Positions 6,865 through 59,405 of a DNA stretch of 64,000 nucleotides are shown piece after piece. The notes beneath the pieces were generated by a model, which saw nothing but the letters and a program-made list of their open reading frames with translations, ran no database searches and had not been told where the DNA came from. A program made the position numbers and the translations under genes. The stretch's first letter is position 1. Each line of letters opens with the position of its first letter. The stretch is from contig OX597814.1 in NCBI GenBank assembly GCA_951406725.2, forward strand, positions 185,380,001 to 185,444,000. The letters are read 5' to 3'. This stretch comes from Octopus vulgaris. Its lineage: Eukaryota.

Positions 6865-7108
6865 CAGCCAGATGCCCTCCCTATATCCATGGGTCAGCTT
6901 GCAAGCCCCAGTTAATTCTGTGTTGTATTATAAATTACCCAGGATCTTGTTTCCTGTCCATTCTTTGATTTCGTCACTTCACAAATGTTTTCGATGGCCT
7001 CTTGCTCTCTTACCATCAAAACCTCTGGTCAGGATGGTCATGGACAGTGACACGCGGTCCATCGTCTGTCCAAAATATTATAGTTTTGTAAACTTCATTC
7101 ACGACCAT
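6865..7108 (-). mobile_element. Second RTE-clade LINE 3' fragment (decayed)
   Basis: Minus strand KL*YFGQTMDRVSLSMTILTRGFDGKRARGHRKHL*SDEIKEWTG. Confidence 0.7.
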
Positions 7109-7109
7109 T

Positions 7110-7698
7110 ATTCTTTTCTGCTGTAGGAACAAGGCTCGAAATCTTTTGGCGAGGGGGCCAGTCGATTTGATCGACCCCAGTACGCAACTGGTACTTAATT
7201 TATAGACCCCGAAAAGATGAAAGGCGAAGTCGACGTCGGCGGAATTTGAACTCAAAACGTAAAGACAGATCTCAAAACATAATGACAGACGAAATACCTA
7301 TTTCTTTACTACCCACAAGGGGCTACACACAGAGAAGACAAACAAGAACAGGAAAACGGATCTAAGTCGATTATATCAACCCCAGTGCGTAACTGGTACT
7401 TATTTAATCGACCCCGAAAGTATGAAAGGCAAAGTCGACCTCGGCGGAATTTGAACTCAGAACGTAGTGGCAGACGAAATACTTATTTCTTTACTACCCA
7501 CAAGGGGCTAAACACAGAGAGGACAAACGGATTAAGTCGATTATATCGAGCCCAGTGCGTCGTAACTGGTACTTATTTAATCGACCCCGAAAGGATGAAA
7601 GGCAAAGTCGTCCTCGACAGAATGTGAACTCAGAACGTAGTGGCAGACGAAACACCGCTAAGTATTTCGCCCGGCGTGCTAACGTTTCTGCCAGCTGG
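7110..7698 (-). mobile_element. Head-to-tail multimer (3 units) of Nin-domain tRNA SINE
   Basis: Repeated core GTCGACTTTGCCTTTCATCCTTTCGGGGTCGATWAAWTAAGTACCAG (reverse strand); one full head near 7698, internal units start at (G/A)GTATTTCGTC. Confidence 0.85.
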
Positions 7699-7822: not shown

Positions 7823-8821
<999 letters not shown>

Positions 8822-12962: not shown

Positions 12963-13020
<58 letters not shown>

Positions 13021-13145
13021 ACAAGGGATACATTGGACAATCTCGTCCCGAACGCTCAGGTGAGACGGTCATGACAGGAACGTCTTGATTATAAGTCTGG
13101 CCGAAGTAGATCTATAATCAAAATAGCAGCAGCAGCAACAGCAGC

Positions 13146-13179
<34 letters not shown>

Positions 13180-13286
13180 CTAACAAGGAATACATTGGAC
13201 AATCTCGTCCCGAATGCTCAGATGGAACGGTCGTGACAGGAACGGCTTGATTATAAGTCTGACCGAAGTAGATCTATAATCAAAAT

Positions 13287-13290
<4 letters not shown>
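13021..13290. repeat. Tandem duplication (~161-bp period) between (AGT)n/(AGC)n tracts
   Basis: ACAAGGRATACATTGGACAATCTCGTCCCGAA...GTAGATCTATAATCAAAATAGCAGC present twice. Confidence 0.85.
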
Positions 13291-13368
<78 letters not shown>

Positions 13369-14879: not shown

Positions 14880-15325
14880 TGTTACTTTATTAGCCACACA
14901 GGGCTGCACACAGACAGGACAAATTACAAGGTAGAGCTTTTCTTTTGGGGGTAAAAAAAAAGGGGTTTTGGTTTTCGATCAAAAGGGATCGTAAAGGGAA
15001 AGAAAGAGGACAAAAAAGGGGGGAATAAAATTTTTTTTTAAAGGGGGGAGGGGAAAAAGGGAGAGGAAAAAAAATTGATCAATAGGGATCGTTATCACAG
15101 AAATGTCAATATGAAGTGTAAAGGGGAGGACAGGTGAGGTTTACCCGTGGAAAGAAAAGCCTACGGAAAAGACCACGGTAACCTCGGTCAATGAAGTCAC
15201 ATGTTATATTTCTTTTTTTTTTTTGCAAATAAGCAACTCTCTGTATTAATTTTTACGGTTCATAGAATCATAGTCAAGGTGGCTTCGTCATTCATACATG
15301 CCATCCTTGCTACATTCACCCATCT

Positions 15326-15472: not shown

Positions 15473-15887
15473 GTAATTAAGTTAAGTTAATTTTGGGGCT
15501 CAAAAAGCAAAAAGCAAGGCCATGTAGGGGGACATGGAGTTATGTACAGGGTGGTGTTCATGTAAAGAGTTAAGGCCACTTGAGGTCAAGAGAGACTTTG
15601 AACCGAGCGGTCGTCGGCATCTTCACTGTCTCGTCCGGCAGCTTATTCCACGGATCCGCAACCCGGACGGAGAAAGCCCCTCTCCTTCGATTGAGATGAA
15701 ATCGTCGCAGATAGAGCTTTTCGGAGAGACCCCGCAGCCGACGCTCTGGAGCAGGAGTGAAGAACAGCTCTTTCGGGAGGTTACACTTTCCGCTTATGAT
15801 GTTGTGAGCAAGAATGAGATCACCACGGCGTCGTCGTTTTTCTAGAGAATAAAGGTCGAGCGTCTTCAGCCTTTCTTCATAAGACAA
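15473..15887 (-). mobile_element. CR1-clade LINE 3' end, 5'-truncated
   Basis: Open C-terminus LSYEERLKTLDLYSLEKRRRRGDLILAHNII...FSVRVADPWNKLP...FKVSLD; short UTR with (TTAAC)-like tail. Confidence 0.9.
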
Positions 15888-16719: not shown

Positions 16720-17308
16720 ATGATAAGAGTAAATAATTTCTATAAAGGCTTTTAAAAAAAACCCAATTATTTACTGGTAGAATTCGGTATGTAAATATAG
16801 CCGATTACCGGCAGGAACTTCCGTAAAGTTCAGTATATATATTGTATATAAGAAAAAGGGACAGGCAAAACAGGTTGCTTGACCGCATACCGAAAAAATA
16901 GAAATAGCAGTCAAGAATGCTTATTTCTATCAAAGTTGGACTCCGGGCATGACAGACCCTGTAATTCACATATGCAAAACAGAAGGAATAGATAACGAAT
17001 ACGAAGTCTGGCGGTTATCTGTGAACATCATGTTTCTGGATTATAAACATATTGAATATATATTCCATATATTTTGATATATATTTCATATATATTGCAA
17101 ATATATTTCACATCCTTCTTCAGCACAGCTTTCCATTGAAAAAGATTTATCATAGATTTATCAAATGCTACGTACCTCAAACCTTCTGACCATGCGACAT
17201 CAAAATATTTGAAGTAAGTGAGCAAAGGCTAAACCTACATAGACGTTTGACAGGGTCTGTCATGCCCGGAGTCCAACTTTGATAGAAATAAGCATTCTTG
17301 ACTGCTAT
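16720..17308 (-). mobile_element. Penelope-like non-coding repeat with hammerhead motif and a perfect 59-bp inverted repeat
   Basis: 16904-16962 is the exact reverse complement of 17250-17308; hammerhead lies between the arms. Confidence 0.6.
17019..17128 (-). ncRNA. Type-I hammerhead motif with a long AT-rich insertion in stem II
   Basis: Reverse strand CTGTG-CTGAAGA-aGGAT-[~70 nt]-ATCCa-GAAA-catgatg-TT-CACAG; 5-bp stem I, helix III ACAT-G-ATGT. Confidence 0.55.
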
Positions 17309-17896
17309 ATATATATATATATATACATATATATTTACTTTTACTTTTATTTTTACTTGTTTCAGTCATTTGACTGCGGCCATGCTGGAGCACCGCCTTT
17401 AGTCGAGCAAATCGACCCCGGGACTTATTCTTTGTAAGCCCAGTACTTATTCTATCGGTCTCTTTTTGCCGAACCGCTAAGTGACGGGGACATAAACACA
17501 CTAGCATCGGTTGTCAAGCGATGCTAGGGGGACAAACACAGACACACAAACACACACACATACATATATATATATATAACGGGAAGCTTTATGAAAATAG
17601 ACAAATGACGAAGGCAGGTGGAAAACAAACAAACAATTGTATTAGTATGGCGCTCAGGAAATATAAATAAAACAAGTCTTTAACGTTTCGAGCCTACGCT
17701 CTTCAACAGAAAGATACACAGAGAGAAAAATAACACAGAAAGAAGGAGAGAAAAAAATGCGTGCAGTAACTAACGAATCAACATGGCGATCTTATATATA
17801 TATATATATACAAAAAGCAATAAAGATTCAAGTTAATTTAAATGAATTTACTTGAATATGGTACCTAACTTAGATAGAAATAAGCATTCTTGACTG

Positions 17897-17931
<35 letters not shown>

Positions 17932-18392
17932 TATTTACTTTTACTTTTATTTTTACTTGTTTCAGTCATTTGACTGCGGCCATGCTGGAGCACCGCCTTT
18001 AGTCGAGCAAATCGACCCCGGGACTTATTCTTTGTAAGCCCAGTACTTATTCTATCGGTCTCTTTTTGCCGAACCGCTAAGTGACGGGGACATAAACACA
18101 CTAGCATCGGTTGTCAAGCGATGCTAGGGGGACAAACACAGACACACAAACACACACACATACATATATATATATATAACGGGAAGCTTTTTATGAAAAT
18201 AGACAAAAGACGAAGGCAGGTGGAAAACAAACAAACAATTGTATTAGTATGGCGCTCAGGAAATATAAATAAAACAAGTCTTTAACGTTTCGAGCCTACG
18301 CTCTTCAACAGAAAGATACACAGAGAGAAAAATAACACAGAAAGAAGGAGAGAAAAAAATGCGTGCAGTAACTAACGAATCAACATGGCGAT

Positions 18393-18412
<20 letters not shown>
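17281..18412. repeat. Near-identical ~600-bp tandem duplication containing a SINE 3' half and a ~200-bp hammerhead-like element
   Basis: 17281-17811 repeated at 17873-18412 with few differences. Confidence 0.9.
17578..17793 (-). mobile_element. ~200-bp non-autonomous element with variant hammerhead (core at 17677-17714); duplicate at 18178-18395
   Basis: Reverse strand TCTTT-CTGTTGA-a-GAGC-gtag-GCTC-GAAA-CG-TT-AAAGA; flanked by (TA)n. Confidence 0.65.
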
Positions 18413-18865
<453 letters not shown>

Positions 18866-27416: not shown

Positions 27417-28262
27417 TATATCTTTACTACCCACAAGGGGCTAAACACAGAGAGAACAAACAAGGACAGACAAACGGATTAAGTCGATTATATCGACCTC
27501 CAGTGCGTAACTGGTACTTATTTAATCGACCCCGAAAAGATGAAAGGCAACGTCGACCTTTACTACAACAGAGAGGACAAAGAAGGACAGACAAAGGGAT
27601 TAAGTCGATTATATCGACCCCAGTGCGTAACTGGTACTTAATTTATCGACCTCGAAAGGATGAAAGGCAAAGTCGACCTCGGCGGAATTTGAACTCACAA
27701 CGTAATGGCAGACGAAATACCGCTAAGTATTTCGCCCGGCGTGCTAACCATTCTGCCAGCTCGCCGCCTTTTTAATGATTCTTATTTCTTTACTGCCCAC
27801 AAGGGGCTAAACATAGAGGGGAGAAACAAGGACATACAAACGGATTGAGTCGATTATATTGACTCCAGTGAGCAACTGGTACTTATTTAATCGACCCCGA
27901 AAGGATGAAAGGCAAAGTCGACCTCGGCGGAATTTGAACTCAGAACGCAGCGACAGGCGAGATACCTATTTCTTTACTACCCACAAGGGGCTAAACACAG
28001 AGAGGACAAACAAGGACAGACAAACGTATTAAGTCGATTACATCGACCCCAGTGAGTAACTGGTACTTATTTAATCGACCCCGAAATGATGAAAGGCAAA
28101 GTCGACCTCGGCGGAATTTGAACTCAGAACGCAGCGACAGGCGAAATACCTATTTCTTTACTACCCCACAAGGGGCGGAATTAGATCTCAGAACGTAACG
28201 GCAGACGAAATACGGTTACGCATTTCGCCCGGCGTGCTAACGTTTCTGCCAGCTCGCCGCCA
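27417..28262 (-). mobile_element. Two adjacent Nin-SINE multimers
   Basis: Full heads ending ~27770 and ~28260; internal junctions AAAGAAATA|GGTAT(T/C)TCG. Confidence 0.85.
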
Positions 28263-35150: not shown

Positions 35151-36067
35151 TGGGGTAAAATGTACGAAGCACCAATATACCCATGACTACCTTTCTGATA
35201 AGGGTACACCAGGCACATTTATCACAACCATATGAGCCCGACATGGTGATCTCATATCAAGATAAACAGAGCATGACCTTGCAGATGGGGCCCAGTTAGA
35301 ATTTTGTTCAGTTGGATTAGCCCATCCCGCTCAAAAGATCCCTGAATAAGGGTTGTTTAAGGATGTTGAACGAGACAACCATGTTTCCAGAGTTGAACCA
35401 TTCAAACCCCAAAGAATTCTTCTCGACACATGGCTATGATGGTGCCCCACTATTTCTGATCGTGATCAGGGATGCACATATCTTCATCCACTAATTGACA
35501 TGCTCAACTGGTTGAGGTCAAGCAACCGACAAACAAATTGAGCAGAATATTTGCTGTAGCCCATTTTCTATACCAAGAGAAAACATGATAACACTTCCAA
35601 TCAGTTAAGATCAAAAGCCATGAGAAGGCGGCGAGCTAGCAGAAACGTTAGCCCGCCGGGCGAAATGCTTGACGGTATTTCGTCTGCGTTACGTTGAGTT
35701 CAAATTCCGCCGAGGTCGACTTTGCCTTTCATCCTTTCGGGGTCGATAAATTAAGTACCAGTTACGAACTGGAGTCGATGTAATCGACTTAATACCTATG
35801 TCTGTCCTTGTTTGTTCCCTCTGTGTTTAGCCCCTTGTGGGTAATAAAGAAATAGGTATTTCGTCAGTCTTTACGTTCTGAGTTCAAATTCCGCCATAGT
35901 CGACTTTGCCTTTCATCCTTTTGGGGTCGATAAATTAAGTACCAGTTGCATACTGGAGTCGATCTAATCGACTGCCCCCCCCTCTCCAAAAATTTCGGGC
36001 CTTGTGCCTAGAGTAGAAAAAGACCAAAAGCCATGAGAGCCAGTGCCTGGTACTGCATCAGAGCATT
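35151..36067. mobile_element. Non-coding interspersed repeat embedded in (TTA)n, with a nested SINE dimer
   Basis: Flanked by (TTA)n on both sides; continuous across the SINE via duplicated AAGAYCAAAAGCCATGAGA. Confidence 0.6.
35626..36019 (+). mobile_element. Nin-SINE dimer with one 19-bp target-site duplication
   Basis: TSD 35607-35625 / 36020-36038 (1 mismatch); internal junction at 35854/35855 AAAGAAATA|GGTATTTCG. Confidence 0.9.
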
Positions 36068-38862: not shown

Positions 38863-39355
38863 TATATGAGGCTTAAGGCTAGATAACTGCAACGCCATTA
38901 ACTTCACTTCCGATGTCATTAACACCACCGGCACCGTTTGTAACGGCACCGCTACCACCACCACCATCACCACCATATAGATCATCCCATCTACGCCACC
39001 ATCCACTATCTACCTCCGCAACCGCCTCCACCATTTACACCACCAATTCCCTCTATCTATTACACCTTCTATACATACCATCACCGCTTCCATTGTCTAC
39101 ACGACCACCCTTATCATCTGCTTCACCACGACCACCCTTATCATCTGCTTCACCACGACCTCCAGCAACTATACCACAACCACCAGCGCAACTATGTTCA
39201 CAACTCTACCACTTACTCCACTATTCACTAAAATCAAACCAAAGAAGAAACCTCTAAATGGGTCACAGGAGCTGCTAGTAATAGCAGCCAAATCACCATC
39301 AGAGCATTCCTGTTGTCTTAAAAAAAAGCGCGAAGGAGGAATACATTGGACATGT

Positions 39356-40125
39356 AATACCTATTTCTTTACTACCCACAAGGGACTAAATACAGAGTGG
39401 ACAAACAAGGACAGACAAACGGATTAAGTCGATTATATCGACCCCAGTGCGTAACTGGTACTTATTTAACCGACCGTGAAAGGATGAAAGACAATGTCGA
39501 CCTGGGCGGAATTTGAACTCAGAACGATGCGGCAGACGAAATACCTATTTCTTTATTACCCACAAGGGGCTATACACAAAGAGGACAAACAAGGACAGAC
39601 AAACGGATTAAGTCGATTATATCGACCCCAGTACGTAACTGGTACTTATTTAATCGACCCCGAAAGGACGAAAGGCAAAGTCGACCTCGGCGGAATTTGA
39701 ACTCAGAACGATGCGGCAGACGAAATACCTATTTCTTTATTACCCACAAGGGGCTATACACAGAGAGGACAAACAAGAACAGACAAACGGATTAAGTCGA
39801 TTATATCGACCCCAGTACGTAACTGGTACTTAATTTATCGACCCCGAAAGGATGAAAGGCAAAGTCGACCTCGGCGGAATTTGAACTCAGAACGATGCGG
39901 CAGACGAAATACCTATTTCTTTATTACCCACAAGGGGCTATACACAGAGAGGACAAACAAGGACAGACAAACGGATTAAGTCGATTATATCGACCCCAGT
40001 ACGTAACTGGTACTTATTTAATCGACCCCGAAAGGACGAAAGGCAAAGTCGACCTCGGCGGAATTCGAAACTTTGAACGTAGCGGCATTTCGCCCGGCGT
40101 GCTAACGATTCTGCCAAGCTCGCCA
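39356..40125 (-). mobile_element. Nin-SINE tetramer, exact 184-bp period
   Basis: TATTTCTTTA unit starts at 39362, 39546, 39730, 39914; one partly deleted head at ~40070-40125. Confidence 0.95.
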
Positions 40126-42450: not shown

Positions 42451-43972
42451 AGAAAGAAAGTGATTTAGTTTACGTCAAGTAGTAAACTGTTGAAGTTGTT
42501 AAGTCGTCGGATAGAAAGCCTTGCGGTATTACTGCTGGTGCTCTGCATTCTGAGTTCAAATCCTACCAAAATCAACTATACCTTCCGGGTCAATTAATAA
42601 AGTACAAGTTAAGCACCGGTCCTCTCCCTCCCTTTAGTTTCTCAGAATCGGCTGGCTTTATGCTATAAGAAAAGACATAGCAATCAACTCATGGCATGAG
42701 TTCTTCTTCGGAAATAGATAAGATATGATTTAGAGGAGACGACCTGAAACTGTAATATTTTCTTTAGTAGCCACAAATTCTTGTAGAGATAAAAATACAA
42801 AACTTTCGAAGAGGGTTAAAGAAAGAATAACCGAAACTTGAGTGTGTAATTATACAGAGTAACACATCCATCTATAAGACAGATAGGTATGTTTGTATAT
42901 ATATATATACATGCATATTTGCACGGAAATAAAGTACAATAAAAGAATTTTTTTTCTTTCTTCTATAAGAACAATAGCTGAAAATTTGTGGGGATGGGCT
43001 TGTAGATCACATCGTCTCTGAAAGAACGAAAGCCAAAGTTGACTTCGATGATTTTAAACGCAGAACGTAAAGCAGGAAGAAATGCCGGTAATCATTTTGC
43101 CACCTTGAAAAAAAAATATGCACTAATTAATACAAAATATAATTTTAAAAAATAAGTCGTGAAAGATTTTTCTAGGTAGACTGAGTTGGGTATTCTACGG
43201 CCTTGTTCACTTCATTATTTTCCAGATTGTGTCTGAGTACAATCAAATGTAACCACTGAGTTTTTTTTAAAGATATTGTATGATGAAACACGCACCATCT
43301 TCAGAATATTCTTTTTTTAAGTTCGATATTTTAAAATTTTACTAGTAACATATCATTTACGTGTTGTTTATATTCTAAATTCAAATGTTGTTGGGTCATT
43401 CTAACTTCTTCAGAGAGTACGTGGCACGAGTGATGGGTGATTTTGTCAATTAAGTGATTGTTTGATTTTCGAAGGACGATGTACTTTAGTCCATCATCGT
43501 TCTTTTCATTTCCGTTGTTATCTTCTTGAGAAGAATTTTGTTGTCATTTAAAAGAATTTGCTCTTCTTCACATGTCGCTATCGTATTTTTTTTTATGTTG
43601 AATCTTTTATCTATATTTTTTTCTTTTCCCTTTCGTATTTTCATCTGTAAGTGATTCTTCCTCGCTGCACGATGACGACGCGGTATTACAGGTTGGTACA
43701 CTTAAGAGACGAGATGTTTGCTCATCTATTTGTGATACGAGACCTAAAGATGTTTCCTTCAATATTCCTAGAAGTTTTGACAAGTGGTGCTCTGGAAACT
43801 GGAATCATTTTGGTTTTTACTATTCTTCATTATTTTCATTGTCCTTGATTTTGCTTAATCCTTTAATGGCATTCATTCTGCACCATGTATTCATCTCTCT
43901 TCTCCAAAACTCGAAAGATCGTAGGTGTTGCCCTTCCCTCCTTCATTATGTAGTTAAAAAAAAAGAAAAGCT

Positions 43973-44776
43973 GTTCTTTCTACTATAAACACAAGGCCTG
44001 AAATTTCAGGGAAGGGGACTCGCTGGTTACATCGATCCCAGTGTTCAACTACTCCCTATTTTATAGACCTCGAAAGGATGAAATACAAAATTGACGTCGA
44101 CTGTATTTGAACACAGAACGTAAAAGCGGAAGAAATACTGTTAAGCCTTTTCTTTTTTGTCCGGTGTGCTAATGATTCTTATTTCTATATTGCCCACAAG
44201 GGGCTAAACATAAAGGAGACAAACAAGGACAGACAAAGGGATTAAGTCGATTACATCGACCCCAGTGCTCAACTACTCCCTATTTTATAGACCCCGAAAG
44301 GATGAAAGGTAAAGTCGACCTCGGCGGGTTTGAACTCAGAACGTAATGGCAGACGAAACACCTACTTTTTTCCTACCCACATGGGGCTAAACACAGAGAG
44401 GCCAAACAAGGACAGACAAACGAATTAAGTCGATTATATCGAACCCAGTGCGTAACTGGTACTTATTTAATCGACCCCGAAAGGATGAAAGGCAAAGTCG
44501 ACTTCGGCGGAATTTGAACTCAGAACGATGCGGCAGAAGAAATACTGCAAAGCATTTCGCCCGGAGTGCTAACGATTCTGCCAGCTCACCGCCTTCTAAA
44601 TCATTATATTTAACAGATGTATGAGGGGGAAAGCCGATTACATCGAACCCATTGCTCAACTGATACTTATTTTATCGACCCCGAAATGATTAACTTGTAC
44701 TCAGAATGTAAAGACGGAAGACATGCCGCTAACATTTTTGCATAGCGTACTAATGATTCTGCCAGCTCCCCGCCTT
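43973..44776 (-). mobile_element. Cluster/multimer of Nin-SINE copies of different ages
   Basis: Four CGACCCCGAAAGGATGAAAG-like cores; heads ending ~44595 and ~44776. Confidence 0.8.
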
Positions 44777-58735: not shown

Positions 58736-59405
58736 CGCGCAGGAGTGGCTGTGTGGTAAGTAGCTTGCTTACCAACCACATGGTTCTAGGTTCAGTCCTA
58801 CTGCGTGGCACCTTGGGCAAGTGTCTTCAACTATAGTCTCGGGCCGACTAAAACCTTGTGAGTGGATTTGGTAGATGGAAACTGAAAGAAGCCTGCCTTA
58901 TATATGTATATATATATATATTTCTATACTACCCACAAGGGGCTAAACATAGAGGGGACAAACAAGGACAGACATAGGTATTAAGTCGATTACATCGACC
59001 CCAGTGCGTAACTGGTACTTAATTTATTGACCCCAAAAGGATGAAAGGCAAAGTCGACCTCGGCAGAATTTGAACTCAGAATGTAACGACAGACGAAATA
59101 CCGCTAAGCATCTCGCCCGACGTACTAACGTTTCTGCCAGCTCGCCGCCTTTGTATATATATATATATATGTGTGTGTGTGGGGAGGGGGTGTATGTTTG
59201 TGTGTCTGTGTTTGACTCCCCCACCAACATCACTTGGCAACTGATACTGGTGTGTTTACGTCCCCGTAACTCAGCGGTTTGACAAAAGAAACTGATAGAA
59301 TAAGTACTAGGCTTACTAAGTCCTGGGGTCAATTTGCTCAACTAAAGGTGGTGCTCCAGCATGGCCACAGTCAAATGACTAAAACAAGTAAATGAGTAAA
59401 AGAGA
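58736..59405 (+). mobile_element. TGGCTGTGTGG-family SINE with a Nin-SINE monomer (58918-59151, minus) nested in its (TA)n
   Basis: Head 58736-58900, 3' half 59195-59405; nested element has full head AAGGCGGCGAGCTGGCAG. Confidence 0.85.

What the first reader, a model, noticed from the sequence alone, without database searches (positions are those of the whole stretch)
39356..40125. Nin-SINE forms head-to-tail multimers with a recurrent junction in the loop of a hairpin in its tRNA-like head
Seen: four units at an exact 184-bp period; similar multimers at 7110-7698, 27782-28262, 35626-36019 and 43973-44595. Internal units start at GGTATTTCG right after the tail end AAAGAAATA. In the full head this point is the last loop base of a 12-bp hairpin CGGGCGAAATAC-TTAGCG-GTATTTCGTCTG between the A and B boxes (anticodon-arm position), and the tail end GAAATA equals part of the hairpin 5' arm. 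Units in this array share private variants (AACGATGCGGCAG). Inference, two models: (a) the transcript is cut in the anticodon-like loop, circularised and reverse-transcribed by rolling circle; (b) a sequence-specific LINE endonuclease repeatedly targets the SINE's own head. A second junction type (AAATA|AGAATCATTA) occurs at ~27782 and ~44172.
Basis: partly seen in the sequence, partly recalled or inferred. Interest (0 to 1): 0.72.

Follow-up and report, generated by a model that had tools for sequence, protein, structure and literature searches.

The report
Jumping gene stacked in fixed-joint chains
A short tRNA-derived jumping gene of an animal genome sits mostly in head-to-tail chains with one shared joint; the joint is likely inherited and copied by recombination between look-alike units, not cut afresh each time or rolled from an RNA circle.

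Summary
The array is real. Four units of a tRNA-head SINE lie on the minus strand (39362-40124) at an exact 184-bp period. In the window 9 of 14 tail ends run into the same point of the head (5 of 5 arrays), the tip of a 12-13-bp RNA hairpin. The same joint appears in contigs of 3 of 4 public runs laid.

Units are mosaics. The two inner units carry the 5' alleles of the last unit and the 3' alleles of the first, switching at +33 to +41, not at the joint. Each array has a head at its 5' end, two arrays have one flanking duplication, and subfamilies are mixed. That fits an inherited joint spread by read-through retrotransposition and homologous exchange. It fits neither pure rolling circle nor pure serial targeting. 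No ribozyme was found, and a cyclic RNA contig also reads as a linear dimer. Similar SINE multimers are published for a clam, a jerboa and squamates. RNA-guided self-insertion remains open (about 0.22).

The parts
40086..40124 (-). tRNA-like head of unit E1 with A box (40106-40116); a 19-base deletion between two TGC repeats removes the hairpin loop and the joint site
39914..40085 (-). Unit E1 (+14 to +184): differs from E3 at 5 of 20 sites up to +33 and at 1 of 151 after
40057..40065 (-). Ancestry switch zone (+33 to +41), just 3' of the B-box-like motif; equivalent zone 39505-39513 in E4
39730..39913 (-). Unit E2 (184 bp); carries alleles at +78/+81 found in neither E1 nor E4 but common in other copies
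39546..39729 (-). Unit E3 (184 bp)
39362..39545 (-). Unit E4 (184 bp): 0 of 41 differences from E3 up to +41, 14 of 143 after
39356..39361 (-). GGTATT after the last tail: first six bases of a further unit (joint remnant) or a matching target; no flanking duplication found for this array
39320..39327 (-). First run of 4 or more T downstream (T8): predicted Pol III stop for a read-through multimer transcript; none inside the array
27709..27738 (-). Intact 12-13-bp head hairpin (copy C4); the unit start is 27721, at the loop/3'-arm border
7105..7698 (-). Array A: head, tail-A unit, tail-A unit, unit of the other subfamily (tail B)
27417..28261 (-). Array C: five part or whole units, two heads, one 9-14-bp duplication (13 of 14 alike) around the whole array
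35627..36022 (+). Array D: head + tail-A unit, then tail-B unit; 14-bp exact target-site duplication (18 of 19 alike when extended) around the dimer
43970..44593 (-). Array G: three units with both joint types; G2 and G3 share a block of alleles at +75 to +95
58919..59149 (-). Full-length monomer with tail A in a (TA)n tract; used as reference for laying public contigs
14880..15325 (-). Non-SINE element whose last ~45 bases resemble tail A, preceded by a 21-codon frame end: candidate remnant of the partner retroelement, clade not identified

Best explanation
This is a chain of four copies of a tRNA-derived SINE joined at a fixed point, and that joint is likely inherited from earlier chains, with unit number likely changed by homologous exchange in the shared body. 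Steps: (1) INFERRED: a tail-A copy once (or a few times) came to lie at the tip of the head hairpin of another copy, making the joint. (2) SHOWN: the unit has no run of four T and the array has one head; INFERRED: Pol III reads through and a partner LINE copies head plus one or more units as one insert, which gives one duplication around a whole array and sometimes a joint remnant at the 3' end. (3) SHOWN: inner units are mosaics of the outer units with switch points inside the body; INFERRED: misaligned homologous exchange (most simply unequal crossover or gene conversion in DNA) adds units and mixes subfamilies while keeping the joint base-exact.
For: Inner units E2 and E3 carry E4's alleles at +18/+19 and E1's at +97/+157/+174; all E1-specific differences lie 5' of all E4-specific ones (P about 0.001; counts). 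Switch points differ between arrays (E +33 to +41; G about +11 and +72; C near +97; D at or before +13). G2 and G3 share a block of alleles found in no other aligned copy, which is local copying. One flanking duplication surrounds arrays C and D. No T4 lies inside array E. 5 of 5 arrays start with a head. The joint is widespread: 3 of 4 runs laid, two coded organisms. The same layout (first unit with full head, then head-truncated repeats, one TSD pair) is reported in the blood clam and ascribed there, as a hypothesis, to unequal recombination (PMC11481361, passages).
Against: E2 has a +78/+81 allele pair in neither outer unit, so purely local expansion needs an outside conversion tract. Window-unique changes sit mostly on E1's 5' part and E4's 3' part, as expected if three young units were put into an older monomer. 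After correcting for the chosen cut this is marginal (P 0.05, 0.17, 0.27 by how events are counted). Arrays D and A allow a switch at the joint itself. 5 of the 6 loci with this tail in 64 kb are multimers, which seems high for passive recombination (judgement, no rate measured). No duplication was found around E, and only weak ones around A and G. The first origin of the joint at a hairpin tip is not explained by this model.
Confidence: 0.5

Rival explanations
1. RNA-guided self-insertion: transcripts that run past the joint end in sequence identical to the start of every resident copy, so a nicked resident copy would base-pair with the RNA, prime reverse transcription, and receive one or more circularly permuted units in its middle.
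For: Array E reads as an older monomer (E1 5' part + E4 3' part, 12 of 14 window-unique changes) split by exactly 3 x 184 bases. The last unit is of another subfamily in A, D and G. GGTATT follows E's last tail. TATTT at +3 to +7 is a moderate Pol III terminator in mammalian SINE tests, 42% (PMC8466645, passages). Co-transcribed target sequence is said to strengthen targeted integration (PMC4494074, passages).
Against: Not separable from local unequal crossover on this window (P 0.05-0.27). The same TATTT lies in every full head, and it is untested in this animal. No RNA ends could be seen: only contigs were served.
Confidence: 0.22
2. A sequence- or structure-specific nick at the hairpin tip (for example by a Tx1-type LINE endonuclease) draws repeated new insertions, with a seamless homologous 5' join.
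For: D2 is of the other subfamily from its first informative site (+14 to +16), compatible with a switch at the joint. Targets after three terminal tails begin GGTATT, GGTGGT and TA. Tx1-mobilised SINEU copies target another transposon and form tandems (PMC4494074, passages). A tail-sharing element lies at 14880-15325.
Against: Switch points in E, C and G lie inside the body; E's head lacks the site; no short duplication at inner joints; other tail-to-body joints exist in contigs (full head-to-tail in 13 contigs of X1; tail to 59026, 59032 and 59101; 635 joints not shown). The partner's clade was not identified (0 Pfam families for 21 aa).
Confidence: 0.13
3. The transcript is cut at the hairpin tip, ligated to a 184-nt circle and copied by rolling reverse transcription; to give the observed heads the cDNA would have to integrate by homology into resident copies.
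For: The joint is at the tip of an RNA-type hairpin (G-U pairs). E1 and E3 differ at 1 of 151 sites after +33. One RNA run gives a 211-nt contig with a 181-nt period and a 30-nt terminal overlap, and no head coverage. Retrozyme circles of 170-400 nt ligated by RtcB are a precedent (PMC7229834, passages).
Against: No Rfam family at gathering level and no hammerhead core on either strand. The circular unit folds no better than shuffles (z -0.35). E2 differs from E3 at 5 of 184 sites; within-array distances run 0.027-0.186 against a between-array mean of 0.108. The cyclic contig shares its end place (58961) with a second contig that leaves into unique flank at similar depth (8.9 vs 7.1), so it reads as well as a linear tandem dimer; only 3 contigs of that run were laid.
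Confidence: 0.1

Closest known systems
Tandem HCD-SINE multimers of the blood clam Scapharca broughtonii (PMC11481361; passages read)
   Same: TSD-(SINE)n-TSD arrays with a first unit bearing the full tRNA head and later units cut at one place in the head
   Different: There inner units also lose the 3' tail (an internal duplication) and about 3% of high-scoring SINEs are in tandem or palindromic structures; here every unit keeps the whole tail, 5 of 6 tail-A loci in the window are multimers, and subfamilies are mixed
SINE-derived satellites (sSat) of squamates (PMC10702118; Discussion read)
   Same: Tandem units cut from a SINE, with a longer terminal unit; unequal recombination proposed
   Different: Those reach long homogenised arrays of up to 1000 units; these are dispersed 2-5-unit arrays with TSDs in two cases
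Dip and B2 multimers of rodents (PMC8466645; passages read)
   Same: A large share of copies in head-to-tail multimers (about half for Dip, up to eight units)
   Different: Described as full-length units (PMC10702118); no fixed joint inside the head
Non-LTR retrozymes (PMC7229834 passages; 10.64898/2026.07.22.740005 part 1 of 5)
   Same: Tandem monomers of similar size (170-400 nt) in animal genomes
   Different: Defined by a type I hammerhead in each unit and by shown RNA circles; no hammerhead here, and arrays carry a Pol III head
SINEU mobilised by Tx1-Mar (PMC4494074; passages read)
   Same: A SINE that lands in another repeat and forms tandems
   Different: There tandems sandwich a TSD and the partner LINE shares the target; here inner joints have no TSD and the partner is unidentified
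Cassandra TRIM tandem arrays (PMC7215508; passages read)
   Same: Pol III-type element whose homologous repeats let arrays grow by recombination or template switching with a constant joint
   Different: LTR element of plants with a 5S-derived repeat

Membership tests
tRNA-derived SINE | Head with A- and B-box-like motifs and tRNA-like arms | tested here: met
   Motifs read directly in heads; D-arm-like and anticodon-position stems fold; ARAGORN finds no true tRNA gene. The donor tRNA was not identified.
tRNA-derived SINE | Short, non-coding, dispersed, high copy | tested here: met
   231-bp monomer; about 8 loci in 64 kb; 378,894, 166,004 and 71,013 contigs laid in three runs
tRNA-derived SINE | Target-site duplications | tested here: met
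   Clear for D and C, within a TA tract for H; absent or weak for E, A, G
tRNA-derived SINE | Tail shared with a partner LINE | tested here: inconclusive
   Last ~45 bases resemble the end of the element at 14880-15325; its clade is not established
tRNA-derived SINE | Pol III transcription | not testable with these tools
   Only contigs were served
Nin-DC SINE | Central Nin domain | tested here: not met
   Two motifs of the Lottia Nin domain printed in PMC4758252 supplement 4 hit no SINE copy; 4 and 6 matches elsewhere, at chance level. By eye no likeness. A full alignment was not run.
Ceph-SINE | Ceph/CORE-like motif and RTE 5'-UTR half | tested here: not met
   Motif from PMC5786205 hits no SINE copy
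Meta, Deu or beta-domain SINE | Central domain consensus | not tested
   Consensus files could not be read or held no match to window motifs. By recall only, the body resembles the middle of Sauria/Squam1 SINEs.
Non-LTR retrozyme | Type I hammerhead in each unit | tested here: not met
   Rfam scan to E 10: two sub-threshold chance hits; no hammerhead core
Non-LTR retrozyme | Abundant circular RNA monomer | tested here: inconclusive
   One cyclic contig in one RNA run, equally read as a linear dimer
Target-specific (Tx1-type) SINE | Insertions at one site with a TSD, shared with the partner LINE | tested here: inconclusive
   No TSD at inner joints; switch points vary; partner unknown

The most novel reading that the evidence does not exclude
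A self-targeting SINE: one chance joint gave its RNA a 3' end (from read-through, a weak TATTT stop, or a ribozyme-free circle) that base-pairs with any resident copy, so the element now inserts permuted units into its own older copies by homology, a positive feedback that turned most of the family into chains without any specific endonuclease.
Probability: 0.25. Interest if true: 0.72.

Novelty: new variant of a known kind. Interest (0 to 1): 0.42.

Why it matters
SINE multimers are known, but how they arise is mostly guessed. Here one base-exact joint recurs across loci and in at least two coded organisms, every unit keeps a LINE-type tail, and allele mosaics mark where exchange happened. 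That makes the family a good test of whether such arrays grow by DNA recombination or by RNA-guided insertion into old copies. If the latter holds, it is a way for a retroposon to gain target preference from its RNA alone. Practically, repeat libraries that build one consensus will mis-count and mis-date this family.

Tried and rejected
No host genome is held, so no genome-wide census on an assembly. Collection scans for the tail or body found nothing: metagenome contigs, viral contigs, prokaryote genomes. Earlier findings: none by sequence, words or place. Ribozyme: rejected as far as Rfam and a hammerhead core scan go. Assembly artefact: rejected, since units differ and the joint is in independent runs. 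Microhomology switch at GAAATA: rejected, since it would keep the loop. The cyclic 211-nt contig of run X17 first looked like a circle; I set it aside because a second contig ends at the same place and exits into unique sequence. Summed contig depth is about 3-5 times higher on tail A than on the head in X1 and X9 and about 2 times in X12; the tool states that this is no copy number, so I do not use it. A test of 'young units in an old monomer' against 'local growth of a dimer' was inconclusive. Fisher tests at hand-picked cuts are optimistic; G2 vs G3 was not significant (P 0.16). The partner element's 21-aa frame end gave no Pfam family, so its clade stays open. Nine paper searches listed no description of this joint; subscription journals, Repbase, Dfam, the 1994 octopus SINE paper and several supplements (file 1, 44 file 1, 48) were not visible and may describe it.

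Full report
WHAT IS THERE. The element reads on the minus strand. A full monomer (58919-59149) has a tRNA-like head of 47 bases, a shared body of about 120 bases and a tail ending AAAGAAATA or a near variant, 'tail A'. A second subfamily has the same head and body but another tail, 'tail B'. The array given to me is a head with a 19-base deletion, then four units at an exact period of 184, then GGTATT. It holds no tRNA gene and no Rfam family. No tool named the host. By recall alone, the repeat and the microsatellite-rich window look like an octopus; O. vulgaris is reported to have about 11.6% SINEs and recently active L1-Tx1, RTE and Penelope families (PMC13282606, parts 1-2 of 3).

THE JOINT. 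Of 14 tail-A ends in the window, 9 run into the unit start, in 5 of 5 arrays; 2 run into AGAATCATTA; 1 each into GGTATT, GGTGGT and a TA tract. In intact heads the unit start is the first base of the 3' arm of a 12-13-bp stem that uses G-U pairs. I laid 4 of 24 listed runs, all contigs, on the monomer. The 184-base 'go back' joint shows in X1 (8 contigs), X12 (1) and X9 (9), and as loose ends reading as the tail at that place in 913 and 527 contigs. The fourth run shows a 181-base version. Full head-to-tail joints (13 contigs in X1) and tail-to-body joints at other places also exist, and 635 joints were not shown. So the joint is common and family-wide, but not the only one.

The body is not Nin by the test I could run: motifs of the printed Lottia Nin domain (PMC4758252 supplement 4, part 3) and of the Ceph domain (PMC5786205, parts 1-3 of 5 and supplement passages) hit no copy. 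The 'private' allele is in E2-E4 and in G1, not in E1. The array's head lacks the hairpin tip. GAAATA is in 2 of 8 heads listed.

UNIT ANCESTRY. E1 differs from E3 at 5 of 20 sites up to +33 and 1 of 151 after. E4 differs from E3 at 0 of 41 sites up to +41 and 14 of 143 after. All E1-specific events lie 5' of all E4-specific events (P about 0.001). The inner units therefore combine the 5' end of the last unit with the 3' part of the first. C3 matches C2 better before +97 (3 of 97) than after (10 of 87). G1 matches old G3 for 11 bases and then leaves it. G2 shares a block with G3 from about +72. D2 is of the tail-B subfamily from +14 to +16 on. One duplication flanks all of D (14 bp exact) and all of C (13 of 14); none was found for E. 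Within-array distances are 0.027-0.186; between arrays the mean is 0.108 over 57 pairs.

MECHANISM. Switch points inside the body, a 5' head on each array, one duplication around whole arrays and mixed subfamilies are what an inherited joint plus homologous exchange gives. Array E has no run of four T before 39327, so a read-through multimer RNA is expected (inference). Two versions remain. In one, a dimer grows locally by unequal crossover, with an outside conversion tract for E2's +78/+81 alleles. In the other, three young permuted units were put into an older monomer by homology-primed reverse transcription. Twelve of 14 window-unique changes sit on the would-be old monomer, but with the cut chosen freely this gives P 0.05-0.27, so I cannot separate them. 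I give 0.50 to the first, 0.22 to the second, 0.13 to a specific nick at the hairpin tip and 0.10 to an RNA circle. A detail that favours the second: TATTT just after the joint ended 42% of transcripts in a mammalian SINE test (PMC8466645, passages), which would leave an RNA end matching every head and explain the GGTATT remnant. The same motif lies in each head, and it is untested here.

THE CIRCLE. No hammerhead core, and no special fold for the closed unit (z -0.35). Run X17 (RNA, 3 contigs laid) has a 211-base contig with a 30-base terminal overlap and no head coverage, as a closed loop would give. A second contig ends at the same place and leaves into unique flank at similar depth, so a linear dimer explains both. 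It is not evidence of a circle.

WHAT IS KNOWN. Arrays with a full first head and repeated head-truncated units are described in the blood clam (PMC11481361, passages); SINE-derived satellites in squamates (PMC10702118, passages and Discussion); frequent multimers for Dip and B2 (PMC8466645); recombining arrays for Cassandra (PMC7215508, passages); ribozyme circles for retrozymes (PMC7229834 passages; 10.64898/2026.07.22.740005 part 1 of 5); transposon-targeting SINEU (PMC4494074, passages). I also saw passages of PMC5804259, PMC3531059 and PMC3649969 and only a supplement search of PMC4824008. Nine searches listed nothing on this joint, within an open-licence library.

VERDICT. A real, family-wide feature and a new variant of SINE multimers, most likely explained by an inherited joint and homologous exchange. 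Interest 0.42. The self-targeting reading has about a 0.25 chance (RNA-guided insertion plus part of the circle case) and would merit about 0.72.

Noticed in passing
window 14880-15325 (-): Element in a (TATC)n/(TCTG)n tract whose 3' end resembles tail A and which starts with a 21-codon frame end; by recall like the end of an L1/Tx1-type ORF2. Pfam gave no family.
   Followed up: partly
window 15567-15881 (-): Open frame of 104 codons that by recall resembles the C-terminus of a CR1/L2-type LINE ORF2; not searched.
   Followed up: partly
window 17306-18429: Near-perfect tandem duplication with a period of about 600 bp (285 nt at 100%, 240 nt at 96%): very recent, or an assembly duplication.
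   Followed up: partly
window 27562-27570 (-): A third joint type or a secondary deletion: a shortened tail runs into the body at about +43.
   Followed up: no
window 7250-7290 (-): 20-base tandem duplication just after the joint in unit A3, with the first copy type-I-like and the second type-II-like.
   Followed up: no
window 27783 and 44180 (-): Both AGAATCATTA joints follow the same tail variant (GGGCA, with an A at +153), so the second joint may also be inherited within one subfamily.
   Followed up: partly
window 7829-8453 and 12984-13341: Tandem repeats of period 250 and 162 built around microsatellites.
   Followed up: no
reference 59111 and 59151: Opposite-strand joints and loose ends reading as an inverted head in X1 and X12: head-to-head (palindromic) SINE pairs seem common too.
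   Followed up: no
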